IMG/VR virus record: IMGVR_UViG_3300001683_000016
Span: 51,555-115,554 of that record
Strand: one strand, 5' to 3'
DNA from: a virus
DNA length: 64,000 nucleotides
The notes beneath the pieces are model-generated. The model saw only the letters and a list, made by a program, of their open reading frames with translations. It made no database searches and was not told the DNA's origin. The position numbers and the translations under genes were made by a program. Positions 259-18,775 of this stretch are shown one piece after another; the stretch's first letter is position 1; the number at the start of each line of letters is the position of its first letter.

Positions 259-3141
259 ATGGTATTCAATAAATCTTGGAACTATTTGAAATCAATAAGC
301 GATTGGTCGTCTACTGATAGTTTATATGGTAATGAGTATGAAGATGAACCTAGTATAGAAAGAAGAAATACTCCAACTATGGATAACTCGTATCAAAAAA
401 TCTTACCTCAAGATGACCCAAGATTAGATTATAGAACTGGTTGGAAAGGTGTAGAACCCGTTAGGGCTATTCGTGTACAATCAAATCATCGAAAGGCAGG
501 TCAACCCGTACCTCAAGACGGCTCTAATATAAATTATGAACAAGGTGACCCAAAGTTACCGCCAAAGATTCCTGAGATACCTGATGACGATGACCCTGTT
601 TGGGATGACCCCGACTCACGATGGAGTAAAGACCCCAAATCGGGTTCAAGATATTATATGTCGGGTAAATATGAAGATGGTAAGTATATTTCTCGTAAAA
701 ACAAGCATTTTGTTGATTTGAAAAATGCAAAGGCTGGAACTTGGGCTGCAAACAATACTGTTGGGGATATTAATAATTTATATACTCATAACCAACCTGA
801 TAAGTTGGTCTATATTCGTGGGAGTCCCGATAAATATGGTAAAGTACACAGAAGGGATAGTGACGAAGCGGATGAAGGTTTAGCAGAAATGTTTATCGAA
901 CATAAAAAAGATATTTCACCTGAAAACCTTGTTGAAGTACCGTTAAAGACTCATTATAGAAACCAAACAAAAGATATGGGTACTCCTGACCTTGGGCATA
1001 ATAGACGCTCAAAAAGTGATAAAAGCGGGCGAGTTAGTCGTTGGAGTGATAAACCTGTACCTTGGGGCTACAGCCACAAGAAAAAGGGCGAACCAATGGA
1101 CATAGCCTTCCAGTTGCTCAAGATGTCTGCTGATGAAGCAGATGAGTTGGAAGAGCAAATGCTTTCTGATATGGAAAGAGGGACCAGTAATCCACGCTCA
1201 CGAAGAAAACAGCGAAGTATGGGCGAAAGGGAATCAAAGGCATCTATCCATAATTTTCCCGGTTCATCATCTCGTAGAGAAATGTGGGATGAAAAGCAGA
1301 AAGAAAGAGACTGGGAACGATGGGGAAAGAGACATGCTGAAGATAAAGCAATTGCAGGAAAAGACCTACCCTCATATCATGGGTTTGGTAGCGATAGGCT
1401 AAGAGAAATCCATCCGGGTGATAGAGGGAACGATTTCTCATCTATGAAACCGGGAAAATATGAGTTTGACGGTGTAGGTAGGGAAGAAAGACCCATACCT
1501 TTTGAGCCGGGTGATAACCTTATGGAGTGGTTACAGCCCGGATACAACGAATCTAACAACCTAAGACTATTCAGGGATAAGGATGACTCTAAACATGAGT
1601 GGCAACCAAAACCGTGGACAACAAGTGGCCCTATCAATCATGTTCCCGAAACCCAAGAATGGGTAAACAACCCTTTTGATGAAGAACCAACTTTTCACGG
1701 GATACCATTCAATGAAGATACGGGTTTCACAACAGGTGAACCAATGGACATAGCCTTCCAGTTGCTCAAGGGAAAGACAAGGCAATCTACTCTTTGGGGT
1801 TACGACCCAAAAATGGTAGAGAACTTACTCGCAGAAGATAACAGTAATATTTTCATCGCCGCTAAACCCGGAAACGATGATATGCCCGATGATGAACAAA
1901 ATGAGCGTTCGGATAAAATGCTACAAGACCTCGCCGCACTCAAAGAGGAACATGGTCACTTCGATATAACCAGTGCCACAGGTAGAGCGCAGTGGGACGC
2001 AGAACCATCTTTCATGCTCACTAACGTGCCTGATAGTGCAAGGGATTCCATTAATGAGATAGCGGAAAGATACGGTCAGGAATCCATGGGAATCTCGGAA
2101 AAGGGGGAGAAAGGGGTGAACTACGTTACACCGGAGGGGGAGGTAAAGGACAAGTTCAGTAGTATGGAGATGCAGGAAAAACCGGAGTACTCTACAGATT
2201 TTCCGAGTAGTCAGAGGCTGGCTTTTACGGGTTGGCAGGAAGCAAATAAGGCTAATCCAATGCACATAGCCTTCCAGTTGCTCAAGGGTTGGGCAGGTGG
2301 TGTTAGAGGTATAGGTAATAATGCCACGGACAACATTTATCATTATCCACACGAATTAGATTACGGCGCGATAGACGAATATATGGGTGAGAATCCTGAT
2401 GCTACTCTCGGTAGTATGGTAACGCCGTATCTACAAGGACAGTTTACAAATAATCCTCCTCTCTTTCCAGAATTAAGCACAAATCCGCCAACCTATCAAA
2501 GTGAAAGACCTACTCAATTACAAAGCACAGTTCCGGCACCTTTTCCACAAACCCCCGAACAATCTAAAGGTGTTCAAAATCTCATTGATGATGGATTTGA
2601 AAACTATGAATCTAGAGATAGAACGAGAAAACCCCATTACGATAGCATGAATAATGCAGTCAGAGTATTATCTAGAAATTTAAGAAGAAACCCTGCATAC
2701 AATTTTACGCCGCCGGGACGATTACGAGGCACTAAGGGACAGGGCGGTAGAAGTAGGCAAATGCAGAACATGAAACTAAGAAGTTTGTTAGATACTCCTG
2801 TATCTCAAAGTATGGCAGAGATGAACATACCGAAACAAGGAATACCAATTGCGGCAGGCGAACCAATGAACATAGCCTTCCAATTGCTCAAAGAGCGCAA
2901 GTCACCAGCAGCATTTGCTCACAAGTTAGAGTATGACAAGCAATATCAAAAGACACCTAAGCGCGTAAAGTACCGTGAGCAATTAAACGCAGAGCGTAGG
3001 AAGCGTGGCATATACGGTAAGGGTGGTGCGGATGTTAGCCACACACAAGGTGGTAAACTCACTCTTGAAAGCGCACATGCTAATAGAGCAAGACATTTCA
3101 AAAACAAAGGCACTCTCCGCAGGGTCAAGGTGAAAAAATGA
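259..3141 (+). CDS. Modular putative polyprotein: five segments separated by GEPMDIAFQLLK tags; includes SAM-lyase-like and HNH-like modules
   Basis: 960-aa ORF; tag at 1087, 1735, 2251 and 2857; intervening segments show no mutual similarity. Confidence 0.75.
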   Translation: MVFNKSWNYLKSISDWSSTDSLYGNEYEDEPSIERRNTPTMDNSYQKILPQDDPRLDYRTGWKGVEPVRAIRVQSNHRKAGQPVPQDGSNINYEQGDPKLPPKIPEIPDDDDPVWDDPDSRWSKDPKSGSRYYMSGKYEDGKYISRKNKHFVDLKNAKAGTWAANNTVGDINNLYTHNQPDKLVYIRGSPDKYGKVHRRDSDEADEGLAEMFIEHKKDISPENLVEVPLKTHYRNQTKDMGTPDLGHNRRSKSDKSGRVSRWSDKPVPWGYSHKKKGEPMDIAFQLLKMSADEADELEEQMLSDMERGTSNPRSRRKQRSMGERESKASIHNFPGSSSRREMWDEKQKERDWERWGKRHAEDKAIAGKDLPSYHGFGSDRLREIHPGDRGNDFSSMKPGKYEFDGVGREERPIPFEPGDNLMEWLQPGYNESNNLRLFRDKDDSKHEWQPKPWTTSGPINHVPETQEWVNNPFDEEPTFHGIPFNEDTGFTTGEPMDIAFQLLKGKTRQSTLWGYDPKMVENLLAEDNSNIFIAAKPGNDDMPDDEQNERSDKMLQDLAALKEEHGHFDITSATGRAQWDAEPSFMLTNVPDSARDSINEIAERYGQESMGISEKGEKGVNYVTPEGEVKDKFSSMEMQEKPEYSTDFPSSQRLAFTGWQEANKANPMHIAFQLLKGWAGGVRGIGNNATDNIYHYPHELDYGAIDEYMGENPDATLGSMVTPYLQGQFTNNPPLFPELSTNPPTYQSERPTQLQSTVPAPFPQTPEQSKGVQNLIDDGFENYESRDRTRKPHYDSMNNAVRVLSRNLRRNPAYNFTPPGRLRGTKGQGGRSRQMQNMKLRSLLDTPVSQSMAEMNIPKQGIPIAAGEPMNIAFQLLKERKSPAAFAHKLEYDKQYQKTPKRVKYREQLNAERRKRGIYGKGGADVSHTQGGKLTLESAHANRARHFKNKGTLRRVKVKK
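1087..1122 (+). repeat. 36-nt in-frame tag repeat, copy 1 (GEPMDIAFQLLK)
   Basis: ggcgaaccaatggacatagccttccagttgctcaag. Confidence 0.95.
1735..1770 (+). repeat. 36-nt in-frame tag repeat, copy 2 (GEPMDIAFQLLK)
   Basis: ggtgaaccaatggacatagccttccagttgctcaag; 35/36 identical to copy 1. Confidence 0.95.
2251..2286 (+). repeat. 36-nt in-frame tag repeat, copy 3 (ANPMHIAFQLLK)
   Basis: gctaatccaatgcacatagccttccagttgctcaag. Confidence 0.95.
2857..2892 (+). repeat. 36-nt in-frame tag repeat, copy 4 (GEPMNIAFQLLK)
   Basis: ggcgaaccaatgaacatagccttccaattgctcaaa. Confidence 0.95.
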
Positions 3142-3509
3142 GTAATTATCCGTCATACCCAACGACACCTCCTAAAAAATGTGAATATTGTAATGGTGCT
3201 GGAATTATTGACCCTTATGGTGATGAAGAGGATGTGGCTCAGGCTGACCCAAGATATCCACATGAAACATGTTGGAAGTGCAAAGGAACAGGTATACAGA
3301 CAGAATGGTCATTTAACCCATATATGCCTTCTTTCCACCCCCCTTCTTTCCCCCCCCCTTCTTTCCACCCCCCTTCTTACCACGCCCCTCCCCCGTCCAA
3401 AATGGAATTAGGAGAGCCAACAATTAATTTTGACCCTGAATGGCAAGAAATGAATAAAAGTTCTAGTGTTGCATTTTCATTAGCGTGGAACTTACTTAAA
3501 TCAGAATAA
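3138..3509 (+). CDS. DnaJ-type zinc-finger protein with PPSFH repeats and C-terminal AFSLAWNLLK tag
   Basis: CEYCNGAG ... CWKCKGTG (two CxxCxGxG); ATG overlaps the previous stop (ATGA). Confidence 0.65.
   Translation: MSNYPSYPTTPPKKCEYCNGAGIIDPYGDEEDVAQADPRYPHETCWKCKGTGIQTEWSFNPYMPSFHPPSFPPPSFHPPSYHAPPPSKMELGEPTINFDPEWQEMNKSSSVAFSLAWNLLKSE
3327..3386 (+). repeat. 15-nt pyrimidine-rich tandem repeat x4 (ccttctttccacccc)
   Basis: Four adjacent near-identical units encoding PSFHP/PSFPP/PSFHP/PSYHA. Confidence 0.9.
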
Positions 3510-3510
3510 A

Positions 3511-3594
3511 CTGTCCGATAATTCCGATTGTACGTCTATACAAATATACATAATATTACTTGTATATAGACAATACATTAGATTATTCGGACAG
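3511..3594. other. Long imperfect inverted repeat in intergenic region
   Basis: ctgtccgataat...attattcggacag outer arms; gtctatacaa...ttgtatatagac inner arms. Confidence 0.7.
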
Positions 3595-3641
3595 CCAACC
3601 CTTAAGATGACCCCCACTGTGGGCTAACACGAGGTCACAGC

Positions 3642-4298
3642 ATGAGCAGAGATGTAGGGGATACAAACGAAATGAAAATGACAGGGTTGATTTTATCTCA
3701 ATCGGCCTTAGTTGGATTAGCAATAGGAGTATATAGTTCGGGTTTATGGATGCCCGCAGGTTCAAGTGCAAGTTCAACAATAGATGGTATGACTTATGCG
3801 ATGGGTGCGCTTGCAGTTCAAACAATAGCATATTATTTGTTTAAGATGTTCTTTGAACAGTCTATGAAAGAGAAAGTGGAAGTTGCAGAATTACAAAGAA
3901 ACAGGCAGAATATGTATAGACAGCAGCAAATGGGCTTTGACCAACGTAGAGTAGATTTAGAATTGAGACAAATGGAACTGCAATTAGAAAACGAATTACG
4001 TATGATGCATGAAGACCCTAACAGAGTATTAGATAATAATTTTAATAGCGGTGCAGTTAGTGCTGGTGTTCAAGGTGACTATCATAATACCTTCAACCCC
4101 GGACTTGTACCTGTGCATGGTGCAAAAAATGAGGTACCAATGAATCTTGGACTTACTAGTACACAGGAAGCAGTTGACTCAATGGCTCACTCCAATTTAC
4201 CGCCACGCAGTTTACCTATACCGCCAAGAGACGGACAACCTACAACACAGCGTTTGAAGAAAGATGGTACGCCGGATTTAAGATATAGAGCATCGTGA
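3642..4298 (+). CDS. Membrane protein: two TM helices, coiled coil, disordered tail
   Basis: Hydrophobic LILSQSALVGLAIGVY and MTYAMGALAVQTIAYYLF; heptad-like ELRQMELQLENEL; ends KKDGTPDLRY; gaggt RBS. Confidence 0.7.
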   Translation: MSRDVGDTNEMKMTGLILSQSALVGLAIGVYSSGLWMPAGSSASSTIDGMTYAMGALAVQTIAYYLFKMFFEQSMKEKVEVAELQRNRQNMYRQQQMGFDQRRVDLELRQMELQLENELRMMHEDPNRVLDNNFNSGAVSAGVQGDYHNTFNPGLVPVHGAKNEVPMNLGLTSTQEAVDSMAHSNLPPRSLPIPPRDGQPTTQRLKKDGTPDLRYRAS

Positions 4299-4309
4299 GG
4301 TAGACCGAT

Positions 4310-4597
4310 ATGGTACTACCCGGACAACTAATTCCCTCTCCGTTGCGTATATTTCGTAATATTGGTGATGATTCGGTCGAAGAAACTCTTAGAGCAATGC
4401 ATTTAGCAAATACTGTAGATAATACTTATGAATGGGGACTTGGTTGGATTAGAACAATAGTCGTATCTATTGTTGCTGTTATGTCTGTGTCTGCTATGGA
4501 AGCGAACTCAGATTGGAATCTTTGGGAATTAACAGTAGAATGGTGGTATCAAAAAGTAGCAGATTTTGGTTCTTGGATTACTAATAAGTTTAGTTGA
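4310..4597 (+). CDS. Small membrane protein
   Basis: WGLGWIRTIVVSIVAVMSVSAM TM segment and Trp-rich amphipathic C-terminus; gaggt RBS. Confidence 0.65.
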   Translation: MVLPGQLIPSPLRIFRNIGDDSVEETLRAMHLANTVDNTYEWGLGWIRTIVVSIVAVMSVSAMEANSDWNLWELTVEWWYQKVADFGSWITNKFS

Positions 4598-4608
4598 GTT
4601 GATGCTTA

Positions 4609-5325
4609 GTGGTCGCTGCGAGTGGTAGTGTATTAGTAGGCGTGGCCTTGTATGGTAAACAAGCATACAATAATTGGAAATCTCGAAGAGTAGGGATTTA
4701 TGGTGCAACTATGGTTGGTAAGACAACTTTAGACAAATATATGACTACTCCGGGCGAAATGGAAGAAATACCTGAACATGAAAGAACCACGCATTTTAAG
4801 TTGGTTACTCGCTATATACTTCCTAAACCTACTCGTAAAAGAGTTCGCTGGGAAGGTGAAAGGAGGGTTATTCATTCTGCCGACATAGGTGGCGAAGAGC
4901 GTTTTTGGAATCTTTGGATTGATGATATGGTAACTAGACAATGTGAATACGTTATATTCATGTTTGATGATAGAGCGTTTCAAGGAGGGGATGAGGCTTT
5001 ACAGCAAGTAGGAGGTTTTAGATTCTTAGTTGATAGTATAATAAATAGAAATTATAGGTATAGAAACTGGAAGAGTTGGAGAAGGGGTAAGAGGTATGTG
5101 CCTAAGATGATATTACTAGTTGCAAATAAAGCAGATAGATATTTTGATGCTAAAGCGGCACAGTTATGGAGAGAGGGTAGAATTGGAGAACATAAGATAT
5201 TTGACCCTTTTAGAGAAGACCTAATTAGATTACAAAAAGCAGGTGTACCAACGCGCCGTTCATTCATGGCAACACGTATAGGGTGGAACGTTGAGAACAC
5301 ATTATTAGAGATGATAGATTACTGA
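4609..5325 (+). CDS. Small Ras-superfamily (Arf/Rab-like) GTPase
   Basis: G1 GATMVGKTT, G2 Thr (ERTT), G3 DIGG, G4 NKAD; YVIFMFD strand; hydrophobic N-terminal helix. Confidence 0.85.
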   Translation: MVAASGSVLVGVALYGKQAYNNWKSRRVGIYGATMVGKTTLDKYMTTPGEMEEIPEHERTTHFKLVTRYILPKPTRKRVRWEGERRVIHSADIGGEERFWNLWIDDMVTRQCEYVIFMFDDRAFQGGDEALQQVGGFRFLVDSIINRNYRYRNWKSWRRGKRYVPKMILLVANKADRYFDAKAAQLWREGRIGEHKIFDPFREDLIRLQKAGVPTRRSFMATRIGWNVENTLLEMIDY

Positions 5326-5338
5326 CCTCAAAAGTGAC

Positions 5339-5348
5339 CTTTTTAATG
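5339..5348 (+). promoter_or_regulatory. Putative archaeal TATA box for a leaderless transcript starting near ATG 5369
   Basis: tttttaat about 26 nt upstream of the ATG of the AbrB-like gene. Confidence 0.35.
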
Positions 5349-5368
5349 TGGTAGGGTGTGGGAACGAC

Positions 5369-5548
5369 ATGGCGAAGGGGGCGACGACGACTGCATTAGT
5401 TTCCACAGGAGGCTCTAGTAATTCACTTAGAACTACTATACCTATGTGGATTGTGGAACAATTTGGTTTGTCTGCTGGCTCTAAAATAGAATGGACTTTA
5501 GAAGTTAAAAATGGGGAAATGTCTATTTCAGTATGCCCACAGGAGTGA
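5369..5548 (+). CDS. AbrB/MazE/SpoVT-type DNA-binding protein
   Basis: SLRTTIPMWIVEQFGLSAGSKIEW fits the swapped-hairpin pattern; ORF track starts at 5348, ATG 5369 preferred. Confidence 0.75.
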   Translation: MAKGATTTALVSTGGSSNSLRTTIPMWIVEQFGLSAGSKIEWTLEVKNGEMSISVCPQE

Positions 5549-6522
5549 TATATATGGTAATGGGTATGAATCCTTTTAATAATTCGCAACAACCAAATCT
5601 TGGGCAAGTAAACGACGCTACATTAATGGCATTATCTCAACAAGGAAATCCGAATTTCTCTCATGCTGCCCTATTAGAACAAGCATCAGCACAACAGCAA
5701 ATGCAAAGGATGGCAACAGAAAAAAATATAGAAGTACCTAAGGTAAACTTTTATCCTTCTCGTCATGCTAATCCATATAAAGCAAGAAAACAAGATATTA
5801 ATCAAGCATACAAACTCTTGGCTCCTACAAAACGTGCTTTTTTTGACCCTAGGAGATTATTTCGCCATAGTAAATATATGTATAATAAAGATACTGCTGT
5901 GTGTTGTGTAGATGGTTGTAATGTAAAACAATTAATACAACACGATAATCTGTATGCTAGAATAACTGATGAAGAAAGTGGTAGAACACTTTGGGATATG
6001 TATTGGCAGAATCCAGTTACTGGAGAGCCTGAAGCGTTTATTGCTAGAGAGGGCGTAACTAGCGGTCGTAAAATGAGGGCTACATATTGTCCTGAGCATT
6101 TACATTTGTATCATTTGTTATGTAGGTGGGAGGACCAACAAGATGTTGAAGATGAAATGAAACCTAGTCGCTTCCGTGATAAAATAAAAAGAGGAGTTAG
6201 TATAGTCACAGTACCGATATCCACTGTCACTGGTGTTGATACAGGACCATCTCACCCCATGATTACAAAATACGAAAGTTTCTTTGCTGAAATATCAGCA
6301 GATGCTAGAGGTAGTAACGGTATTAGTATGCAACATTATACTAATCCGGTTACTGGAGATAACGATATAACAACTATAACATTTGATATGAGAATGTTCC
6401 AAAAAGAATTAATGGAAATGAATCAGCCAAATCCAGCGTTTCAGGATATTCTAAACCAACAGGCTCAAGTTCTCGCCCCCGCTCCGACGATACCGGAAGC
6501 AGTAATGGAGGGTATGCAATGA
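5533..6522 (+). CDS. Hypothetical protein with Q-rich N-terminus and possible Zn ligands
   Basis: 329-aa ORF; CCVDGC ... YCPEH; true start probably at the later ATG after ggagtga. Confidence 0.6.
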   Translation: MPTGVIYMVMGMNPFNNSQQPNLGQVNDATLMALSQQGNPNFSHAALLEQASAQQQMQRMATEKNIEVPKVNFYPSRHANPYKARKQDINQAYKLLAPTKRAFFDPRRLFRHSKYMYNKDTAVCCVDGCNVKQLIQHDNLYARITDEESGRTLWDMYWQNPVTGEPEAFIAREGVTSGRKMRATYCPEHLHLYHLLCRWEDQQDVEDEMKPSRFRDKIKRGVSIVTVPISTVTGVDTGPSHPMITKYESFFAEISADARGSNGISMQHYTNPVTGDNDITTITFDMRMFQKELMEMNQPNPAFQDILNQQAQVLAPAPTIPEAVMEGMQ

Positions 6523-7172
6523 CTATGGGATGGAACAATCAACAACCTGCTTCTAATGCATTAAATCTTAGTCAAACGGGTGCACCGAGTATGCAATATG
6601 GTAGTCCACAACCTAATTATTTACCGCCACAACAAGGTTGGTATGGTCAACAACAACAACCTTCATTTTTTAATTCTATGTTTGCTGGTGCTACTGGACA
6701 AGACCCATATAATCAACAAGCGATATTACCTCCGAGTGAAACTGAGATTTTGATGACTATGTTGAATACCTCTTATCCGGTAGAAAGATTTCTTCAAAGT
6801 TCAATCTTCCCTATGTTATTAGAGGTTATTAGTCAAATTACTACATTTTCATTACTGAATGTAATTAAAAATGCAAGTTATAACTTTGATGAAGAGAATG
6901 GTGTTTTTACATTAGATACTGCTAGTTTACCAACTGAATTACAAACTATGAGTTCAGAAAATATAATGTCACAAATGAACTCTATGACTAATATGATTAA
7001 TCAAACAGTTTCAAATGCAGATACACAAAGACAGCAAACAATGCAAAATGCTCAACAAAGTATGTTACAAAGTCAATTGACTAATGCGCTTGCTGACCCC
7101 GGTATGTTAAATAATGTAGCACAAGGTAGTGGTACTTTCTTCCGTAATTTTATAACTGGGGGTAGAACATAA
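6519..7172 (+). CDS. Hypothetical Q/N/M-rich protein with coiled-coil C-terminal half
   Basis: 217-aa ORF, ATGA-coupled to the upstream gene. Confidence 0.6.
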   Translation: MTMGWNNQQPASNALNLSQTGAPSMQYGSPQPNYLPPQQGWYGQQQQPSFFNSMFAGATGQDPYNQQAILPPSETEILMTMLNTSYPVERFLQSSIFPMLLEVISQITTFSLLNVIKNASYNFDEENGVFTLDTASLPTELQTMSSENIMSQMNSMTNMINQTVSNADTQRQQTMQNAQQSMLQSQLTNALADPGMLNNVAQGSGTFFRNFITGGRT

Positions 7173-7441
7173 TGTTAGGTAGTAATGGTTCTAGTAATTT
7201 TGGTATGCCTGTACCAAAACAATTAGCAGATATGTCAATACATATGCTTGCTCCAAAGAGAGAAGTAATTGTAGATATGGTGATGGTACAATTAATTAGC
7301 GCTATACTTATTTTTATGGGTATTCTAATATTCAAAAATAACGATATTAACCAAGGGGAAATGTCTATGTATATGGTAGGAGTATTTTTATCCTTTATTC
7401 TCTTGACATCTATATATCAGCGAATAACGCGGTTTGTATAA
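7172..7441 (+). CDS. Small two-TM membrane protein
   Basis: MVMVQLISAILIFMGILIF and MYMVGVFLSFILLTSIY; TAATG coupling. Confidence 0.7.
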   Translation: MLGSNGSSNFGMPVPKQLADMSIHMLAPKREVIVDMVMVQLISAILIFMGILIFKNNDINQGEMSMYMVGVFLSFILLTSIYQRITRFV

Positions 7442-7459
7442 GCAAGGCTGATTAACCAT

Positions 7460-8161
7460 ATGGTATTCGGGTTATATATGGTTGAGCGAGAGCCAGTTAT
7501 GAAACGTTCCTGTGCTTTCTGTCAAAATGATGACAGAAAGGGTTTGGAAGAGACCATAAAAAATGGTGAATTATCTTGTGCTCAATTGGATAAAGATATG
7601 AGTTGGAGGGCCAATACCGCCGACCGTCATTATCGTAATCACATGGGTCAATATCACATGGCTGCAAACCCGTCTTGCCTTATTTGTTCAAGTGAGAACA
7701 GAGCAGAGTATGAAAGTAGATTCTTCTCTGATGGCACAGAATCTGAATTAATAGCAGAAGAATTAGAAATTAAAGAAACTACGGTATATCACCATATGAA
7801 ACATCACTTTCAGCCACTGGTTCAACGCTCGGCAGTAACCGAGGTTGCAATTACAGTTGGGAATGAAATAACTGTATTACGAAATAATGTTGAGAAACTT
7901 AATACTAAATTAGCAGAATTATTAGATGAAGGTAGTGTACACGAAGAGGGCTTTGTGAGAAATGCAGTAACTTTACATAAAGAAGTTAGAGAGTCAATAA
8001 AAGATTTAACTGGCTTCCAAGATAAATGGGGTACTACAACAGACGGTACACAAGTGAATCAAACTATTAATATACTCAAAATAGAATTAGCAAAAGAAAG
8101 TCCCGATAGTTGGAAGAGAATCAAAAGTAAGTTACAAGCGGAAATGGAGGAAGTTATATGA
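7460..8161 (+). CDS. Putative terminase small subunit / Zn-HTH DNA-binding protein
   Basis: Two tandem CxxC...HxxxH units (CAFC..HYRNH; CLIC..HMKHH) then a coiled coil; lies upstream of the large terminase. Confidence 0.5.
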   Translation: MVFGLYMVEREPVMKRSCAFCQNDDRKGLEETIKNGELSCAQLDKDMSWRANTADRHYRNHMGQYHMAANPSCLICSSENRAEYESRFFSDGTESELIAEELEIKETTVYHHMKHHFQPLVQRSAVTEVAITVGNEITVLRNNVEKLNTKLAELLDEGSVHEEGFVRNAVTLHKEVRESIKDLTGFQDKWGTTTDGTQVNQTINILKIELAKESPDSWKRIKSKLQAEMEEVI

Positions 8162-8562
8162 TACCTGTATCGGATTTAATGCAAGTTCAACATCCGGGTT
8201 ATCGTACTTTTATACAATCTAATACTATGTCCGCTATGCATTATCCTTTATTTTTTGATTATTGTATATGTGTATCAGAAAGATTTAGACATTATGCATA
8301 TCAAGAGGCTAATGTACTAATTAATGAAAATAGTCTTATGCATATAATAGATTGCATAAAACAATTAGATGATACCGATGAGCCTGAAATAGTATTACCG
8401 TTGAGAGAACAGATAAGACATTCATGTTACGAGTTCTTAGAACATTGTAATGATATGTCTACTAAATTCAAAAGCCCAACCAGTATTTCTTTATTTTATA
8501 ATGAGTTAGGACAACTCGTGATGCAGACCGCTTTTGAGTTTGCGGGGGTACAACATGAGTAA
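8158..8562 (+). CDS. Hypothetical protein
   Basis: 134-aa ORF, ATGA-coupled, ggagg RBS. Confidence 0.55.
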   Translation: MIPVSDLMQVQHPGYRTFIQSNTMSAMHYPLFFDYCICVSERFRHYAYQEANVLINENSLMHIIDCIKQLDDTDEPEIVLPLREQIRHSCYEFLEHCNDMSTKFKSPTSISLFYNELGQLVMQTAFEFAGVQHE

Positions 8563-9955
8563 GCCAGTAAAGATTTTGAAGTCAGGTATGACTAGTACTG
8601 GTAGCGATACTCGTATGTATGGACCGAGAAGTGAATCCTCTCACATGTTCCATGGTAATCACGAAGATGAAGGGGATGTTTACGGTGGAGAAGGGGGTGA
8701 ATATCGTGATGCAAGAATTGACCGCAAAAAGAAAGAACGTAAAGAAAGAGAATCTGAAATGAAGAAGTTAAGACATATTTCAGTAACTACAGCAGATTTA
8801 CCTCCTGAAGATGAGGAAGAAAAAGATAAAGACTTAGAACCGACAAAATTCGATAATGAACTTGAGCCTTCTTTAATGACCGGTACTCCGGGTAATTTTG
8901 GTGCTATGACTAGTATGGCTAATCAAGCAAGGGGGCCGGGTTTTGCCGGTGGGCATAATTTTGCTATGGGAGAACCAATGAATATAGCGTTCCAGTTATT
9001 GAAAGGCGGGAGAGCCGGTTTTATAGGTAAAAAACCAAAGAGGGCGAAGGGTGCTAAAGCAGCAAGAGCGCATAAAGAAAGGCAGAAGAAATGGAGGCCA
9101 TCTACTGGTGAGTTCAAAAGGCCGCCGGGTGGTATGACACCGGCTAGTGCTACATCTAGAAGAGCAAAGGCAAGAATGCGAGGTATTGCCGGTAGCAAGA
9201 AAACAGGGTTAGGTAGAGCACATCTTGCTGTCGAAATGTCTCACAGAGGTGTAAAAACTAAACAGCCTATGTCGAAAGATGTAAAGAGATATAGACAATA
9301 CCTAGGACAGTCTGAAGCAAGAAAGCGTTTAGGTAACATACGAACTATTTCTTCTACACCTTCTAGATTTGGTGCACGTTCATACAAAGCGGGGTTAACT
9401 GGCGGTGGTACACTACAAAGTCTACTCCCCGGACAAGCCCAACAAATGAGAAGACCATCACTTAGGTCAATTAGACCTCCACCGTTAATGCCACCTTCTG
9501 CACCTAGTAGAGCCACTTTACCTTCACCTTCCATACCGAGTCCTCCTGTAATGTCCCAACCAAGAATGGGAGTTGGGGTGCAAAGCATGTCCAACCAAAG
9601 TCCAACTTATAGACCTAAGTTACCTAGTTCTTCAATACAAGGTGCACCTGTAATGACTGGTGAGATTGGAGAAGGTAGTGAACTACAAAAAAGGGGACTA
9701 TCATACTATGACACCACAGAATTAAGACAATTACTCCTTGATGCTAAAAGAGCCTTGAACCGTAAAGAGAATAAGAAAAAGGGTAAAGGAGAGAGAAGTA
9801 CAGATGCTGCTAGTCATTTACCCGCCCATACAGAAGCAGGCCCGAAACAGACCACAAGACCTGAAGGCGCTACAGAAGATGCAAATAATGAGCCTCGCAC
9901 ATTTGGTATTAATCCTCTAGACCATCTTACAAGTAGAGGCGGTAGAACACCTTGA
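8555..9955 (+). CDS. Low-complexity putative internal head protein: acidic segment, GEPMNIAFQLLK tag, very basic segment, Pro-rich segment
   Basis: ORF track 8534..9955; ATG 8555 gives MSKPVKILKSG; fifth tag copy at 8969. Confidence 0.65.
   Translation: MSKPVKILKSGMTSTGSDTRMYGPRSESSHMFHGNHEDEGDVYGGEGGEYRDARIDRKKKERKERESEMKKLRHISVTTADLPPEDEEEKDKDLEPTKFDNELEPSLMTGTPGNFGAMTSMANQARGPGFAGGHNFAMGEPMNIAFQLLKGGRAGFIGKKPKRAKGAKAARAHKERQKKWRPSTGEFKRPPGGMTPASATSRRAKARMRGIAGSKKTGLGRAHLAVEMSHRGVKTKQPMSKDVKRYRQYLGQSEARKRLGNIRTISSTPSRFGARSYKAGLTGGGTLQSLLPGQAQQMRRPSLRSIRPPPLMPPSAPSRATLPSPSIPSPPVMSQPRMGVGVQSMSNQSPTYRPKLPSSSIQGAPVMTGEIGEGSELQKRGLSYYDTTELRQLLLDAKRALNRKENKKKGKGERSTDAASHLPAHTEAGPKQTTRPEGATEDANNEPRTFGINPLDHLTSRGGRTP
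8969..9004 (+). repeat. Tag repeat, copy 5 (GEPMNIAFQLLK), synonymously diverged
   Basis: ggagaaccaatgaatatagcgttccagttattgaaa; same peptide as copy 4 with several synonymous changes. Confidence 0.9.
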
Positions 9956-12369
9956 TTGACTCATTCATCATAATGAAATCTCTTTTACTTAGAAAGGGAG
10001 ACGGTAATTACAACCTGTTTGCAGGCCAATTACAAGCCTTGAGATACCCTCCACCTGATTCTCATAATCCTGACCCTGACGGAATGGATATTCCAGCATT
10101 CGCACACACCGGAGCACATGGTGAAAAAGAATCAGGTATTCCCGGCGTAGGTCAGGTATATCCCGGTCAATGGAAAAAAGGAATGCATGGAGAAAATGTC
10201 TACGGTGATGAATCGGGCGGAGAACACATGCATGGTATTGACGGCATTATACGAGCAGTTGGTGATTCTCTTTTACAACACGGTATTAAAGTACCTGCTA
10301 AAGATGTAATACAAAAAGCCATAGACATGCATAATCAAGACCATAAAGAAAATAATCATTTACCAAATGTAGATGACGTTGCTTGGAGAAAAATATATTT
10401 ATCGCCATTAACAGAACAAGACCATAGAGTTAGAGGTAACTATGACCAAGATGGTAATTTAACAACAACATATACTAACAGGCATGGTGATGACCATAGA
10501 AATGGTACTTATTTAGAATCTTATGCAGTACCGTTCAATAATCAACTTGGTCAAGTTATGGGTGAGTTAGGTCATCCTACACCCCAACAACATAGTTGGA
10601 TAAAGAAACCTTACGTTAAACCACATAGATTACATTTAGTTCCTGATGGAGAGGGCGGAATGGAATTTGGCGCACAAGCGGTTGACACAGGTAAAGTAAC
10701 TGATGGGAGAATACAACCGAGTCAAGCAGCAAAATGGGGAGGTAGAATGCCTGATAGTAGAGCCTTTCAAAATATATCATCTTGGGGTATTGCACATCAT
10801 TACCCAAACACATATTACATTCCTCAAAGAGACGCAGCCCCCGGACAAAAAAGCCAACCAAGAACACAAACAATTAATAGTTTTCTTCATCATATGGCTT
10901 TAACGACTGGGAAAGACAGAGATGGTATTCTGAGTAATCTGATAGTTGATAGTTCAGGTGCTATGAAACATTTAGCAAACATACCGGGAGAAATAAACGG
11001 TAAACCGATAAAAGCGTTATTACAAACCCCTGAAGGACAATTAGAGGCAGCAAAATATTTCTCTCAGTTTCCAGCATTTCAAGCAGTTTATGGAGAAAAT
11101 AGAAATCCTAAATTTAATGAAGACGGTAGTGTGAAACAACCGGGTCAAACTGTTGGAAGAATGAATCATTTTTATGGTCAAAGATATGGTGATACAGCAG
11201 AAGAAGGAAAAGGATTCGACCACTTTATGAGCCATAGTAGTAAAATTGGTGTTGAACACCAATTAACTGGTAAAATAGGCCATCATAATAGAGCAAAAGA
11301 TGCTTGGAGTAATGTTGTGCTTGCAGCATCGCAAGGAATTAACCACATGGATGATGAAATATCTCCTGAGGATTTACAGGCCGCTAATATTAATTTGCAC
11401 GATACTCCTGAAACTAGGGCTAATGCTCCAAATATAAAAGCAATACTAGACCATTTGTTTCACACCCACACTATAGCAGGTGGACACGAAAGAAAAGAAA
11501 TACCTACACAAGAAGAATTACAACAACTACAACCTATTGTAGATAATATAATTCAAGGTGGAACACATGAAGATAGAACTCAACTTGGCGTACCTGACTA
11601 TATTAGATATTCAGAGATGCCTAATTCTATGACACCTGTGGGTGCATCTATGCAGCCTGAAGAAAGTTCGTTAAAACCTAGAGATGGAAACGCAAAGGGT
11701 CAAGGCGGTGCACCTCTTCCGATTACCGGCGGGGCGGCGACGGCTGCAACTAATGCCGCACCACCACCTCAAACTCCACCACCTCAAACTCCACCTCAAC
11801 AAATTGGTGTTATGCAAGGCCAACCTGCTAATGCTCCAAATTATCCTCCCCAAATGACATATGATAGAGGTCAAAGATTATCACAACCTGAATCTATGAA
11901 CTTAACGCCACAACAAAGACAAAGGTTACAATTTGCAAACGCTCCTCAAAATGAAGTAGCACAAACAATGAGACAATCGGGCGCTGCGCCACAGAGAGCA
12001 CCTTTAACTCCTGATAGAATGCAACAATTTCAACAAAATGTAGGAGACCCTTATCAGAGATTCATATCGCAATATGCTAAAAGTTCTGATAATCCTAATG
12101 CTGCTAAAGAAAGATTAATCAAAGCGGTTGAAATATTACAAATAGAAGATGCAAGAAATGATAATGAAATAATCAAACACATGCCTTCAACACAATTAAG
12201 TGTAAATTCAATTACAGATATTCTATATTTAGCGAAAATGTTAGAGATTACATCTATGGATGTTAGTACAATCTTAAACACTAAAGGCGATTGGCAAAGA
12301 ATATCCAAGACATACGGTTATTCAGATAGAGTAGTTAAAGTAGTCAAGGTTTCATTCGGAGGTATCTAA
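9952..12369 (+). CDS. Hypothetical His/Gln/Pro-rich protein, possibly head-associated
   Basis: 805-aa ORF; hydrophobic-x-K|[SGA] motifs at both ends (IIMKS, LLRKG, YAKS, LIKA). Confidence 0.6.
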   Translation: MIDSFIIMKSLLLRKGDGNYNLFAGQLQALRYPPPDSHNPDPDGMDIPAFAHTGAHGEKESGIPGVGQVYPGQWKKGMHGENVYGDESGGEHMHGIDGIIRAVGDSLLQHGIKVPAKDVIQKAIDMHNQDHKENNHLPNVDDVAWRKIYLSPLTEQDHRVRGNYDQDGNLTTTYTNRHGDDHRNGTYLESYAVPFNNQLGQVMGELGHPTPQQHSWIKKPYVKPHRLHLVPDGEGGMEFGAQAVDTGKVTDGRIQPSQAAKWGGRMPDSRAFQNISSWGIAHHYPNTYYIPQRDAAPGQKSQPRTQTINSFLHHMALTTGKDRDGILSNLIVDSSGAMKHLANIPGEINGKPIKALLQTPEGQLEAAKYFSQFPAFQAVYGENRNPKFNEDGSVKQPGQTVGRMNHFYGQRYGDTAEEGKGFDHFMSHSSKIGVEHQLTGKIGHHNRAKDAWSNVVLAASQGINHMDDEISPEDLQAANINLHDTPETRANAPNIKAILDHLFHTHTIAGGHERKEIPTQEELQQLQPIVDNIIQGGTHEDRTQLGVPDYIRYSEMPNSMTPVGASMQPEESSLKPRDGNAKGQGGAPLPITGGAATAATNAAPPPQTPPPQTPPQQIGVMQGQPANAPNYPPQMTYDRGQRLSQPESMNLTPQQRQRLQFANAPQNEVAQTMRQSGAAPQRAPLTPDRMQQFQQNVGDPYQRFISQYAKSSDNPNAAKERLIKAVEILQIEDARNDNEIIKHMPSTQLSVNSITDILYLAKMLEITSMDVSTILNTKGDWQRISKTYGYSDRVVKVVKVSFGGI

Positions 12370-12996
12370 ATGGGTAAGGTTTACGTTATTAGAAAAGAAG
12401 GTACACAACCGGGATTTACTAATTCAACTGCTGGTATAGTCGCAGGTGGGAATGGAGCGCAAGTTATGCTAACTCCGGGTGGCGGGAATCGCCCTGATGC
12501 AGCATCTTTTGGCCCTGCGCAATTTGACGATAAGAATGAACAAATAAGCGGTACAGGAGAATACGGTCCACAAGGTTCTTATCAAAACAGATTTGCACAA
12601 TTTGGAGATAAATATGGTCGTTTGGCTAGATATGGTCTTGCTGGAGCAGGTGCTTTAAATTCATTTTACAATACTACGTCTAGTGGAGAACCGGGTGCTT
12701 TGAGTGCGGGTGCAATGGGTGGCTACACAGGATGGCTAGGTTCAGGAGGTACTGAAAGAGGCGCTGCAAACTTAGGAAGTCGATTCGGTGCACGTTTAGA
12801 TAGAAGAAATACTACTGGTGAAATTAGTGAACAAGAGGAAGAAGGAGAAGAAGTCGGTCCTGATGGTAATAATCCAATAACGTCAGCATTGGATAGTTTA
12901 CGGCCTAAGAAGGTCGTTGGACCTAAACAAACTACTCTAAATGATTTTGAAAATAATAATAATAAATATAACATGAATAATTTGCGTGGTTATTAA
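12370..12996 (+). CDS. Gly-rich hypothetical protein, possibly ejected or membrane-interacting
   Basis: 208 aa; ggagg RBS; MGKVYVIRKEG leader; Gly/Ala-rich hydrophobic stretches. Confidence 0.6.
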   Translation: MGKVYVIRKEGTQPGFTNSTAGIVAGGNGAQVMLTPGGGNRPDAASFGPAQFDDKNEQISGTGEYGPQGSYQNRFAQFGDKYGRLARYGLAGAGALNSFYNTTSSGEPGALSAGAMGGYTGWLGSGGTERGAANLGSRFGARLDRRNTTGEISEQEEEGEEVGPDGNNPITSALDSLRPKKVVGPKQTTLNDFENNNNKYNMNNLRGY

Positions 12997-14479
12997 AATG
13001 TCAAAAAGCAAAGAAGAAATGGAAGCATTTATTCTTAATATTGACACGGAGATGTCTAAGAAATCATTCAAGTATTTTTTTGTAGATATGCTAGGTTTCT
13101 TGTACAATCATCATCATGAGTCTTGGAAAGTAGGTTTAGAAGAATCACAGTATTATTGCGTAAAGGCTTCACGCGACCATGGTAAATCTGTTTTCTTTAT
13201 GATGTATGCTTTATGGTTAGCGGCATATAAACCTAATACTCACGTCATGATATTCTCACATTCACTCGAACAGACACTTGAACACATGAGATTTGTACGT
13301 AATATAATAGAGGGTAGTGATTTATTGAGACATCTAAAACCACAGGGTAAACCTTGGGCTAAATCGTACTTCGAGTTTTCTAACGGTAGTCGTATGATGG
13401 CGAAGTCAGTTGGGGGTGCAACTCGTGGTTTCCACCCCGACATAGTAGTGTGTGATGATATTTTATGGGGTACTACCGCCAGTGAACTTGCTAAAACAGC
13501 AGATTGGTTCTATGGTGTTTTGTTACCTGTACTTCACCACAGCAGTAAACTGATGATGGTAGGTACTCCGTTTAGTTACAATGATTTGTATGCAGAATTA
13601 GAAGAGAAAGAAACATTTCGTGTTGAGACATATCCTGCGATAAATGAAGAGGGTGTTGCGCTATGGCCTGAGAGATGGGATTTAGGCGCACTAGAACATA
13701 GAAGAATGTCTATGCCCGCTATACAATTTTCACGTGAATATCTTTGTGAACCAATACATGACGTAGCCAGTATGTTTCCCGGCCCTATGTTAGAAAAATG
13801 TAGAGACCCGAAATTAGTTCTTTTAGATAGAGCAGAGACAAATTACAATGAGGAAGGTGAAGCAGATGGTGTATTTGGTCAACACTTTATTGGACATGAC
13901 CCCGCTATATCTTCTGACAAAAATGCTGATTTTACCGCTATGACTGTAATGAGACAAAAACCGGATGAAATAATAAAAGAAATTGTCCATGTTGTACATG
14001 AAAGAGGAATGTCGTCAATGGCTCAGAAAAGAATGATGGTGCTATTAAATAGTAAGTTTAGTCCTGATTTAATTGAACTTGAAGGAAATAACTTTCAAAG
14101 AATGTTAGAACAAGAAATGAGAGAATTGAGAGCAGATATGCCTATTCGAGTATTTATGACTACACGTACAAAGAAAGAATCTCTTTTCATGTCCTTACTT
14201 CTCGCATTTGAGCAAGGACATATAAAACTTCCATATGGTGATGAGAGGAGCAGGGCTTACACTCATAAAGTGGAACAAGAATTGAATAGATTCGGTATGC
14301 AGAAAAGTGGAAAGTTAGAAAGTGTGGGCGTTCATGACGATTTGGCTATGAGTCTTGCGCTTGCTAATTGGGCTTCTAAAGAGTTCAAAGGTAGCGTTAC
14401 ACTCTTAGATGATTATATGCCCGGATTTGATGAGTGGTTCGCAGGGGATAGCAAAACAGACTCTCTGATGATACCTTGA
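12986..14479 (+). CDS. terL: Terminase large subunit
   Basis: Walker A ASRDHGKS, Walker B IVVCDD, VGTP coupling motif, RNase H-like GHDPA...HDDLAMS. Confidence 0.93.
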   Translation: MVIKMSKSKEEMEAFILNIDTEMSKKSFKYFFVDMLGFLYNHHHESWKVGLEESQYYCVKASRDHGKSVFFMMYALWLAAYKPNTHVMIFSHSLEQTLEHMRFVRNIIEGSDLLRHLKPQGKPWAKSYFEFSNGSRMMAKSVGGATRGFHPDIVVCDDILWGTTASELAKTADWFYGVLLPVLHHSSKLMMVGTPFSYNDLYAELEEKETFRVETYPAINEEGVALWPERWDLGALEHRRMSMPAIQFSREYLCEPIHDVASMFPGPMLEKCRDPKLVLLDRAETNYNEEGEADGVFGQHFIGHDPAISSDKNADFTAMTVMRQKPDEIIKEIVHVVHERGMSSMAQKRMMVLLNSKFSPDLIELEGNNFQRMLEQEMRELRADMPIRVFMTTRTKKESLFMSLLLAFEQGHIKLPYGDERSRAYTHKVEQELNRFGMQKSGKLESVGVHDDLAMSLALANWASKEFKGSVTLLDDYMPGFDEWFAGDSKTDSLMIP

Positions 14480-18764: not shown

Positions 18765-18775
18765 GAGGGGATGTT

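What the first reader, a model, noticed from the sequence alone, without database searches (positions are those of the whole stretch)
3642..7441. Virus-encoded Arf/Rab-like GTPase in a membrane-protein operon
Seen: a 238-aa GTPase with intact G1, G3 and G4 motifs. It has DIGGEERF (Glu where Arf/Ras have the catalytic Gln of DxxGQ) and a hydrophobic N-terminal helix. It is flanked by a two-TM coiled-coil protein, a one-TM protein, two Q-rich proteins, another two-TM protein and an AbrB-like regulator. No holin/endolysin is recognisable in the window. Known: small GTPases of this type control membrane remodelling and are unusual in tailed viruses. Inference: a GTPase-switched membrane module for egress/lysis, membrane-anchored assembly or superinfection exclusion in an archaeal host.
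Basis: partly seen in the sequence, partly recalled or inferred. Interest (0 to 1): 0.8.

Follow-up and report, generated by a model that had tools for sequence, protein, structure and literature searches.

The report
Arf-like GTPase membrane cassette, magrovirus
A 115-kb tailed virus of the abundant marine group II archaea encodes its own very divergent Arf-type small GTPase, locked in a conserved gene block with small membrane proteins and orphan partners; it is an untested candidate for how these viruses act on, or leave through, the host membrane.

Summary
ORF 4609-5325 encodes a 238-aa small GTPase with G1 (GATMVGKT), a conserved RTxH switch-I motif, G3 (DIGGE), G4 (NKAD) and G5 (MAT), behind a 21-residue hydrophobic/amphipathic N-terminal helix.

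- **Sequence:** no curated family model reaches its cut-off.
- **Host virus:** the genome is a magrovirus, carrying a chaperonin, PolB, an RFC-like ATPase and an HMG-CoA-lyase-like gene.
- **Distribution:** the gene occurs in over 200 IMG/VR contigs and in 13 of 13 relatives chosen by TerL alone. It is under strong purifying selection (dN/dS 0.06).
- **Synteny:** in 147 loci the order is 2-TM protein, small 1-TM protein, GTPase, Cys/His protein of unknown fold, Q-rich protein. A 2-TM protein usually follows, and an AbrB-like gene is present in 62 loci.
- **Glu96:** this is not a family trait. The position reads Q, E, D or H.

The function is inferred, not shown. I favour a GTP-switched membrane device acting late in infection, most likely in egress. 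A role in membrane-anchored head assembly is a serious rival. No searchable paper describes the cassette. This scan has already found it on other magrovirus genomes.

The parts
3642..4298 (+). g2: 218-aa membrane protein. It has two hydrophobic helices, then a basic, Gln-rich helical stretch and a conserved C-terminal LKKDGTPDLRYK-type tail.
   Evidence: Homologues occur in 143 of 147 loci, always two genes upstream of the GTPase. There is no Pfam, PHROG or PDB sequence match beyond a weak DUF350 hit.
4310..4597 (+). g3: 95-aa bitopic protein. It has an N-terminal IF(R/K)xxxD(D/E)xxE helix, one transmembrane helix and a Trp/aromatic-rich juxtamembrane tail.
   Evidence: A small ORF lies directly upstream of the GTPase in 144 of 147 loci. 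The clade C version is related by hhalign (probability 44%, E 2.4e-4).
4609..5325 (+). g4: 238-aa Arf-like small GTPase. N-terminal helix 4615-4677; G1 4702-4725; RTxH 4783-4794; G3 DIGGE 4882-4896; G4 NKAD 5125-5136; G5 MAT 5266-5274.
5348..5548 (+). g5: 66-aa AbrB/MazE (SpoVT-type) DNA-binding-fold protein, an accessory member of the block.
   Evidence: Pfam PF04014, E 1.7e-5, 25.1 bits against a cut-off of 24.7. Present in only 62 of 147 loci.
5533..6522 (+). g6: about 320-aa protein (likely start near 5560). It has Gln-rich ends, a basic helix and conserved C115, C177, H180 and H185, a possible metal site. Its fold is unknown.
6519..7172 (+). g7: 217-aa Gln/Asn-rich protein with a conserved central TMSAEN block.
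   Evidence: Found in 137 of 147 loci by jackhmmer. The clade C protein in the same position is related by hhalign (probability 65%, E 5.9e-5).
7172..7441 (+). g8: 89-aa protein with two transmembrane helices and a short basic C-terminus, holin-like in size and topology only.
   Evidence: Found in 136 of 147 loci. Only a weak hit to an unknown-function PHROG.
7460..8161 (+). g9: 233-aa Cys-rich N-terminus plus helix-turn-helix protein. A conserved downstream neighbour that is not clearly part of the device.
   Evidence: Weak GerE/HTH_20 matches. Present in 136 of 147 loci.

Best explanation
**Shown**
The window is the right arm of a magrovirus, a tailed virus of marine group II archaea (Poseidoniales). 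ORF 4609-5325 encodes a bona fide but very divergent small GTPase. Its fold and switch-II sequence context are closest to the Arf family. The gene is a core gene of this virus group. It is fixed in a five-gene block (g2, g3, GTPase, g6, g7), usually followed by the 2-TM protein g8. The block lies in the co-oriented morphogenesis gene cluster, about 8 kb upstream of the large terminase gene.

**Inferred mechanism**
1. Like Arf, Arl8, Sar1 and the archaeal vesiculating GTPase ArvA, the protein cycles between GDP and GTP forms.
2. In the GTP form its N-terminal hydrophobic/amphipathic helix and the adjoining basic cluster engage the cytoplasmic face of the host membrane.
3. There it organises or releases the co-encoded membrane proteins g2, g3 and g8 and the soluble orphans g6 and g7.
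4. These bend, perforate or otherwise remodel the membrane late in infection, most probably to time and execute virion release from a host that has no murein wall.

The residue after DxGG is always Q, E, D or H. All four can hold a water molecule, so hydrolysis is probably retained. The invariant Arg next to the switch-I Thr may act as a built-in catalytic arginine.
For: **Host virus:** chaperonin, PolB, an RFC-like ATPase and an HMG-CoA-lyase-like gene lie on the left arm. TerL, portal, protease and MCP lie in the window. This matches published magrovirus architecture (PMC10768690).

**GTPase:**
- The motifs are intact and the model has pLDDT 94.7.
- Full-length membrane-bound Arf1 structures align from model residue 9, so they include the N-terminal helix.
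- Family profiles hit Asgard ArfR 8oun (E 7e-5 and 7.6e-7) and Arl8 (about 1e-4).
- The nearest named protein-atlas clusters carry the Pfam Arf domain.

**Conservation:**
- IMG/VR contigs found: 156, 58 and 10 in three searches.
- 13 of 13 TerL-selected relatives carry the gene.
- Gene order holds in 147 loci, including a clade whose capsid protein is no longer detectable by BLAST.
- dN/dS is 0.06.

**Membrane context:** three of the partners are small membrane proteins.

**Literature:**
- ArvA shows that an Arf-like GTPase with an N-terminal amphipathic helix drives membrane vesiculation in Euryarchaeota (PMC10927574).
- The egress machinery of archaeal head-tailed viruses is described as completely uncharacterised (PMC10791045).
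Against: - No experiment or expression data exists for any of these genes.
- No curated family model reaches its cut-off: Roc 18.7 bits against 27, small_GTP 15.9 against 42.5, and Pfam Arf finds nothing in this genome.
- The margin of Arf over Rab and Rag structures is only about 2 Z units.
- The helix is not clearly amphipathic in the window's own clade (hydrophobic moment about 0.3).
- The block lies among head-morphogenesis genes. In one clade g6 carries the same short (I/V)(A/S)(F/Y)xLLK motif that recurs in neighbouring large proteins and at the end of the protease domain. That points towards virion assembly rather than egress.
- Nothing similar was found in the GenBank phage collection, which should include cultured haloarchaeal tailed viruses. 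It therefore cannot be a general archaeal tailed-virus solution.
Confidence: 0.4

Rival explanations
1. Membrane-anchored head assembly or virion-associated module. The GTPase and its membrane partners would nucleate or checkpoint procapsid assembly at the membrane, as T4 proheads assemble on the inner membrane. Alternatively, g6 and g7 could be internal or ejected virion proteins whose loading is GTP-controlled.
For: - The block sits inside the morphogenesis cluster, between large orphan proteins and the terminase gene.
- The motif (I/V)(A/S)(F/Y)xLLK occurs four times in the 960-aa upstream protein and once in the 473-aa downstream protein.
- It also occurs at the end of the prohead-protease domain (residues 168-175), and as SELLK near the capsid-protein N-terminus.
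- It occurs in the N-terminal region of g6 in 27 clade B loci. This is the pattern expected of a prohead-protease cleavage or capsid-targeting signal.
- In clade C the viral chaperonin gene lies just upstream of the block.
Against: - The window's own g6 lacks the motif.
- No known tailed virus uses a small GTPase in head assembly.
- Three of the partners are tiny membrane proteins with no structural-protein signature.
- The motif's role as a cleavage site is my inference only.
Confidence: 0.25
2. Host-membrane hijack other than lysis. The GTPase could mimic a host Arf/ArvA-type switch to drive or block extracellular vesicle formation. It could also act like SR-beta, an Arf-like GTPase with an N-terminal anchor, and help insert viral membrane proteins.
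For: - ArvA precedent in Euryarchaeota (PMC10927574).
- JGI's pipeline names some members 'GTPase SAR1 family protein'.
Against: - No ArvB (DUF2073) or ArvC (DUF2072) match among the neighbours.
- A phmmer search of 1.84 billion representative proteins found only 76 relatives at E <= 0.001, mostly short fragments of this same family. In 185,579 species genomes the only full-length relative is an 8.7-kb contig that looks mis-binned. Recent capture from a host gene is therefore unsupported.
- SR-beta scores lower than Arf proteins.
Confidence: 0.12
3. Superinfection exclusion, or a defence or counter-defence module at the membrane.
For: Small membrane proteins combined with an NTPase are common in exclusion systems. 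An AbrB/MazE-fold gene sits inside the block in the window.
Against: - No PADLOC defence family matches any of ten proteins.
- The block is a core feature with fixed order and strong purifying selection across deeply divergent viruses. Exclusion and defence genes usually vary between relatives.
- The AbrB-like gene is absent from 85 of 147 loci.
Confidence: 0.06
4. The window's copy is a pseudo-GTPase. Glu96 in place of the catalytic Gln would leave it a GTP-locked or nucleotide-independent scaffold rather than a cycling switch.
For: Glu replaces Gln in DIGGE. No GAP or GEF is recognisable.
Against: - G1, G4 and G5 are intact.
- Across 147 loci the position is Q 72, E 35, D 18 and H 16, never hydrophobic. 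Sar1 and SR-beta use His at this position (established knowledge).
- E and Q alternate among close relatives while dN/dS stays at 0.06, so E and Q appear interchangeable.
Confidence: 0.1

Closest known systems
Arf-family small GTPases (eukaryotic Arf1, Arf6, Arl1, Arl8; Asgard archaeal ArfR, PDB 8OUM/8OUN/8OUK)
   Same: - Best profile hits among solved GTPases.
- An N-terminal membrane-type helix lies directly before strand 1.
- Switch II reads DxGG(Q)xxx(F/Y)WxxW, like Arf DVGGQDKIRPLW, with W103 nearly invariant.
- NKxD is present, and the G5 motif is an Arf-like (C/M)AT.
   Different: - About 60 extra residues in three insertions: after switch I, after helix 3, and between G4 and G5.
- Below every curated model cut-off.
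- No Gly2 myristoylation site.
- No Trp before DxGG.
- The catalytic position varies among Q, E, D and H.
- An invariant RTxH motif sits in switch I.
- Encoded by a tailed virus and tied to orphan partners instead of known GEFs, GAPs or coats.
ArvA (OapA, HVO_3014), archaeal vesiculating GTPase of Haloferax volcanii and other Euryarchaeota (PMC10927574)
   Same: - A small Arf-like GTPase with an N-terminal amphipathic helix in a euryarchaeal setting.
- Encoded in a small operon with partners, one of them a Cys-rich zinc-type protein.
- Acts on the cytoplasmic membrane.
   Different: - The neighbours here match neither DUF2073 (ArvB) nor DUF2072 (ArvC).
- Direct sequence comparison with ArvA could not be run, because no ArvA sequence was obtainable with these tools.
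- ArvA is a vertically inherited cellular gene, whereas this family was found only on viral contigs.
Sar1 and SR-beta (Arf-related GTPases with an N-terminal membrane anchor or helix)
   Same: - A hydrophobic N-terminus.
- Clade C members read DxGGH, as Sar1 does.
- JGI names some members 'GTPase SAR1 family protein'.
   Different: - No SRX/longin or COPII-like partner is recognisable.
Phage holin-type lysis cassettes
   Same: - Clustered small membrane proteins (one or two transmembrane helices, 70-100 aa, short charged tail).
- Encoded in the same orientation as the late, structural genes of a lytic tailed virus.
   Different: - No holin, endolysin or spanin family match.
- The host has no murein.
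- No known holin system includes a small GTPase.

Membership tests
Ras-superfamily small GTPase (TRAFAC P-loop) | G1 Walker A motif GxxxxGK(S/T) | tested here: met
   The window reads GATMVGKT at residues 32-39. G32, G37 and K38 are invariant in the family alignment, and the motif ends GKT in 162 of 164 family proteins that carry it.
Ras-superfamily small GTPase (TRAFAC P-loop) | G2 switch-I threonine | tested here: inconclusive
   T60 in RTxH is conserved in 146 of 147 loci and lies 22 residues after K38. Its role in Mg/GTP contact is inferred from position only.
Ras-superfamily small GTPase (TRAFAC P-loop) | G3 DxxG, G4 NKxD and G5 (S/C)A(K/T) | tested here: met
   D92 and G95 are invariant. 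NKxD is present in 145 of 147 loci. The G5 position reads MAT in clade A and ISA(K/R) in several divergent members; it was not matched in most clade B and C loci.
Ras-superfamily small GTPase (TRAFAC P-loop) | Small-GTPase fold | tested here: met
   [not shown]
Arf family | N-terminal amphipathic helix that switches with the nucleotide state | tested here: inconclusive
   A helix is predicted at residues 3-23. The hydrophobic moment is about 0.5 in clade B but only about 0.3 in the window's clade, and the helix is too weakly hydrophobic to be transmembrane. Nucleotide-dependent switching cannot be tested here.
Arf family | Interswitch toggle (two-residue register shift) | not testable with these tools
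   Only one predicted conformation is available, without coordinates. Most of its top matches are GTP-form Arf structures.
Arf family | Match to the curated Arf sequence model (Pfam PF00025) above its cut-off | tested here: not met
   No PF00025 match in this genome at E <= 0.01. Five of 15 family members match only weakly, with a best E of 0.0048.
Arf family | Closest structural neighbours are Arf-family proteins | tested here: met
   [not shown]
ArvA system (arvA-arvB-arvC) | Operon partners ArvB (DUF2073) and ArvC (DUF2072 zinc ribbon) | tested here: not met
   Pfam scan of all neighbours at E <= 0.1 found neither family.
ArvA system (arvA-arvB-arvC) | Sequence relationship of the GTPase to ArvA | not tested
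   No ArvA sequence or Poseidoniales genome handle could be obtained with the tools available.
Roc/COR GTPases | Roc domain above the cut-off, with an adjacent COR domain | tested here: not met
   Roc scores 18.7 bits against a cut-off of 27. The protein ends right after the G domain, and no COR domain is present.
AbrB/MazE (SpoVT-type) fold, for g5 | Match to PF04014 above its cut-off | tested here: met
   25.1 bits against 24.7, E 1.7e-5.
Holins, for g8 and g3 | Match to a holin family, or adjacency to an endolysin | tested here: not met
   No holin or endolysin family in Pfam or PHROGs for the block or the rest of the window. Only size and topology resemble holins.

The most novel reading that the evidence does not exclude
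The cassette is the missing egress machine of a major group of archaeal tailed viruses. A virus-encoded Arf-type switch would time the moment at which co-encoded small membrane proteins rupture or remodel the host membrane. That would be a GTP-gated lysis system with no counterpart in bacteriophages, and an independent viral use of Arf-type membrane biology outside eukaryotes.
Probability: 0.3. Interest if true: 0.85.

Novelty: new variant of a known kind. Interest (0 to 1): 0.62.

Why it matters
- **Open question:** How head-tailed archaeal viruses leave their hosts is unknown. A 2024 review calls the main players 'completely uncharacterized' (PMC10791045).
- **A testable candidate:** This is a core, strongly constrained cassette built around an Arf-type GTPase and small membrane proteins. 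It can be expressed, mutated at the P-loop, and assayed for GTP binding, liposome binding and toxicity without culturing the host.
- **Evolutionary reach:** It extends Arf-type membrane switches, already known from eukaryotes, Asgard archaea and the euryarchaeal ArvA, to prokaryotic viruses.
- **Limits on novelty:** Pipelines already label the gene a putative GTPase, and this scan has found the same cassette on other magrovirus genomes. The new points here are the cassette's universality, its five-gene core, the Q/E/D/H variability and the possible link to head processing.

Tried and rejected
- **Complex prediction:** Complex prediction with the GTPase and g6 (residues 56-310) returned 'no answer', score 0.00. 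This is not evidence either way.
- **PDB profile searches:** nothing for g6, g7 or g2.
- **Single-sequence PDB search of the GTPase:** only a chance hit. RecA concatemers in the profile search are P-loop repeats, not relatives.
- **Other libraries:** PHROGs has no family for the GTPase. PADLOC has no hit for any cassette protein. tblastn against 50,697 GenBank phage records found no match.
- **Distant members:** P0009 and P0036 were not found in IMG/VR.
- **Cellular genomes:** the genome-contig scan found only an 8.7-kb 'Maricaulis' MAG contig, probably mis-binned viral DNA, and a spurious 45-residue hit.
- **Tools unavailable:**
  - The genome search offers no relatives for a virus record, so host Poseidoniales genomes and ArvA could not be searched.
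  - Accession ON649702, the magrovirus type genome, is not in the phage collection.
- **Upstream palindrome:** the 85-nt palindrome upstream of g2 is strongly structured in this genome (z -5.4). It is not conserved across relatives (median z -1.5), so I do not count it as part of the device.
- **Promoter and terminator scan:** the sigma-70 and terminator scan was uninformative for an archaeal virus.

Full report
**1. What the window is**

The window is bases 51,555-115,554 of a 115,554-bp IMG/VR virus record that CheckV rates as complete. Nearly all long ORFs in the window are on the + strand.

- In the window: a large terminase (12986-14479), portal (15704-17452), prohead protease (24413-25780) and an HK97-type major capsid protein (25810-26979).
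- On the left arm, mostly on the minus strand: a Cpn60/TCP-1 chaperonin, a family B DNA polymerase, an RFC-like AAA ATPase, a PD-(D/E)XK nuclease, an SNF2 helicase and an ArdC-like protein. An HMG-CoA-lyase-like gene lies at the start of the plus-strand cluster.

Two divergently oriented clusters, a chaperonin, its own replisome and an HMG-CoA-lyase gene together match the published description of magroviruses, the tailed viruses of marine group II archaea (Poseidoniales) (PMC10768690; PMC5434244). The host assignment therefore rests on resemblance to that literature and was not tested here.

**2. The observation**

The 238-aa product of 4609-5325 carries:

- G1: GATMVGKT, residues 32-39
- G3: DIGGE, residues 92-96
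- G4: NKAD, residues 173-176
- an Arf-like G5: MAT, residues 220-222
- an RTxH motif, residues 59-62

In 147 homologues, D92, G95, N173 and K174 are invariant or nearly so. RTxH is present in 146. T60 lies 22 residues after the P-loop lysine, so it is the likely switch-I threonine.

Across the 147 loci the position reads Q 72, E 35, D 18 and H 16. E and Q are mixed within the window's own clade, and the most distant clade is entirely His, as in Sar1. All four residues can hold a water molecule and none is hydrophobic. I read this as retained hydrolysis, which is an inference.

The N-terminal 25 residues form a helix in the model.

- Their hydropathy is below a transmembrane threshold. The family's median best 19-residue Kyte-Doolittle mean is 1.08.
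- The hydrophobic moment is 0.3 in the window's clade and about 0.5 in clade B.
- A basic K/R-P-R/H cluster always follows.

This fits an in-plane or shallow membrane helix better than a transmembrane anchor.

**3. What kind of GTPase**

Curated sequence models barely detect the protein.

- Roc scores 18.7 bits against a cut-off of 27.
- MMR_HSR1 scores 15.0 bits against a cut-off of 21.9.
- TIGR00231 scores 15.9 bits against a cut-off of 42.5.
- Pfam Arf finds nothing in the genome.
- phmmer against PDB finds nothing real.

Family profiles do better. They hit the Asgard archaeal Arf GTPase 8oun (E 7e-5 and 7.6e-7), then Arl8A/B (about 1e-4), then Rab33B. The aligned stretch is the switch II region: DIGGxxxFWxxW against Arl8's DIGGQPRFRSMW.

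|---|---|
| Arf6 | 18.0 (rmsd 2.3 over 160 residues) |
| Arl8b | 18.0 |
| Arl1 | 17.8 |
| Arf1 | 17.7 |
| GerdArfR1 | 17.4 |
| HodArfR1 | 17.0 |
| Rag-like protein (first non-Arf) | 16.2 |
| Rab5 | 15.9 |
| SR-beta | 15.1 |

(All.) Full-length, membrane-bound Arf1 structures align from model residue 9, so they include the N-terminal helix.

The nearest named clusters in the protein atlas are bacterial proteins carrying the Pfam Arf domain.

My reading is that it works like an Arf-type GTPase and is structurally nearest to that family. It fails the curated sequence-model test, and its nucleotide-dependent helix switch is untested, so I do not file it as a member. It also differs from Arf proteins by about 60 extra residues in three insertions.

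**4. Distribution and synteny**

*Reach of the family*

- A phmmer search of 1.84 billion representative proteins found only 76 relatives at E <= 0.001, most of them fragments.
- In the 5.8-billion-protein set the family is common in marine metagenomes. JGI names some members 'GTPase SAR1 family protein'.
- IMG/VR holds 156 contigs with close relatives, plus 58 and 10 from two more distant groups.
- Among 185,579 species genomes only an 8.7-kb contig binned as Maricaulis carries it, and that is probably viral DNA.

*An independent test.* I picked relatives by TerL alone (72-85% identity) that had enough upstream sequence. Thirteen of 13 carry the GTPase.

*Gene order in 147 loci*:

| Gene | Loci (of 147) |
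|---|---|
| g2 | 143 |
| a small ORF directly upstream of the GTPase | 144 |
| GTPase | 147 |
| g6 | 147 |
| g7 | 137 |
| g8 | 136 |
| g9 | 136 |
| AbrB-like g5 | 62 |

*Clade C.* The most distant clade includes a complete 140-kb genome with terminal repeats. It has a chaperonin, but no capsid protein that BLAST can detect with this window's MCP. It still keeps g2, a small protein, the GTPase, g6 and a 240-280-aa protein in order.

- hhalign relates that last protein to g7 (probability 65%, E 5.9e-5).
- hhalign relates the small protein to g3 (probability 44%, E 2.4e-4).

*Conclusion.* The deep core is five genes. The GTPase is the most conserved of them, forming 10 clusters at 60% identity against 18-29 for the membrane and Gln-rich partners. 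It has the lowest dN/dS, 0.06 against 0.10-0.18 for the other genes.

**5. The partners**

- **g2** has two hydrophobic helices, a basic Gln-rich helical stretch and a conserved C-terminal peptide.
- **g3** has a conserved acidic N-terminal helix and one transmembrane helix. In the window's clade it also has a tail of about 30 residues with three to six tryptophans.
- **g8** is an 89-aa protein with two transmembrane helices.
- **g7** is Gln/Asn-rich with a conserved central block.

None of them matches Pfam, PHROGs, NCBIfam, PADLOC or PDB sequences in a meaningful way.

The genes abut or overlap, with gaps of 11, 11 and 22 nt and overlaps of 4 and 1 nt, which suggests co-transcription. No terminator-like site lies within 3000-10000, although that scan is designed for bacteria.

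**6. How it most likely works, and the rivals**

*Shown:* an Arf-like GTPase, core to the virus group, is fixed next to small membrane proteins inside the co-oriented morphogenesis cluster.

*Inferred:* GTP-dependent docking of the N-terminal helix on the host membrane, followed by recruitment or release of the membrane partners so that they remodel or breach it.

Two published facts make egress the most attractive reading. In Haloferax, the Arf-like GTPase ArvA, which has an N-terminal amphipathic helix and two operon partners, drives vesicle formation (PMC10927574). And the lytic machinery of archaeal head-tailed viruses is unknown (PMC10791045).

I put this mechanism at 0.4.

The main rival, at 0.25, is a role in membrane-anchored head assembly or in loading virion-internal proteins. 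It rests on something I noticed in passing. A motif (I/V)(A/S)(F/Y)xLLK, mostly GEPM(D/N)IAFQLLK, occurs at these places:

- four times in the 960-aa protein upstream
- once in the 473-aa protein downstream
- in a related form at the C-terminus of the 123-aa protein
- exactly at the end of the prohead-protease domain
- as SELLK near the capsid-protein N-terminus
- in the N-terminal region of g6 in 27 clade B loci

That is the distribution expected of a prohead-protease cleavage or capsid-targeting signal, and it ties g6 to head maturation in at least one clade.

The other rivals:

- **Vesicle hijack or an SR-beta-like insertion role:** 0.12.
- **Exclusion or defence:** 0.06. This is disfavoured by core-gene status, fixed order and the absence of any defence-family match.
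- **A dead switch:** 0.1, and orthogonal to the others. The Q/E/D/H pattern argues against it.

**7. Novelty**

The magrovirus papers I could search do not mention a GTPase. Automatic annotations do exist: 'GTPase SAR1 family protein' and 'putative GTPase domain-containing protein'.

After I had formed my reading I consulted earlier notes of this scan. The same cassette had already been followed up on other magrovirus genomes with the same conclusion. Those notes agree with my reading and did not change it.

I class the finding as a new variant of a known kind: an Arf-type switch in a new setting with orphan partners. Interest is 0.62.

**8. Limits**

- The single complex prediction gave no answer.
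- Transmembrane and amphipathicity calls rest on simple hydropathy scripts.
- No coiled-coil predictor was run.

Noticed in passing
window 1081-1140, 1729-1788, 2245-2304, 2851-2910 (in ORF 259-3141); 8963-9022 (in ORF 8534-9955); 3447-3506; protease residues 168-175 (about 24914-24937); MCP residues 30-34 (about 25897-25911): A short motif (I/V)(A/S)(F/Y)xLLK, mostly GEPM(D/N)IAFQLLK, recurs widely. It occurs four times in the 960-aa protein and once in the 473-aa protein. A related form sits at the C-terminus of the 123-aa zinc-ribbon-like protein. It also lies exactly at the end of the prohead-protease domain, and as SELLK near the capsid-protein N-terminus. It is conserved in relatives and also occurs in g6 of 27 clade B loci. 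It may be a prohead-protease cleavage or capsid-targeting signal.
   Followed up: partly
window 3511-3594: An imperfect palindrome of about 85 nt, AT-rich, lies in the 132-nt gap upstream of g2. It folds at -23.5 kcal/mol (z -5.4). The outer arms recur in two close relatives, but the feature is not conserved across the family (median z -1.5). It may be a local terminator or operator.
   Followed up: partly
window 36971-53521: A single 5,516-aa ORF occupies 16.5 kb in the tail region. It was not scanned against any family library here, as it exceeds the 5,000-residue limit. A 1,879-aa ORF (18728-24367), between the small ORFs that follow the portal gene and the protease gene, has no Pfam match.
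   Followed up: no
window 14560-15702: A 380-aa ORF lies between the terminase and portal genes. It has weak LAGLIDADG (Pfam, E 0.007) and HNH-endonuclease (PHROG, E 3.8e-7) matches, and is probably a homing endonuclease inserted in the packaging module.
   Followed up: no
L142-L149 (IMG/VR clade C contigs), about 3200-4800 in each locus: In the most distant clade the viral Cpn60/TCP-1 chaperonin gene (510-517 aa) lies just upstream of the GTPase cassette, with at most one small ORF before g2. In the window's genome it lies at the far left end.
   Followed up: partly
L152 (NZMJ01000140.1, 8.7-kb contig of a MAG labelled Maricaulis sp.): A contig binned into an alphaproteobacterial MAG encodes a 66%-identical copy of the viral GTPase. 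It is most likely magrovirus DNA mis-binned into the MAG.
   Followed up: no
window 33610-34383; left arm L004:4590-5528 and L004:12947-13795: The window encodes a SAP-domain protein within the tail module. The left arm encodes an ArdC-like anti-restriction/metallopeptidase protein and an HMG-CoA-lyase-like auxiliary metabolic gene.
   Followed up: no
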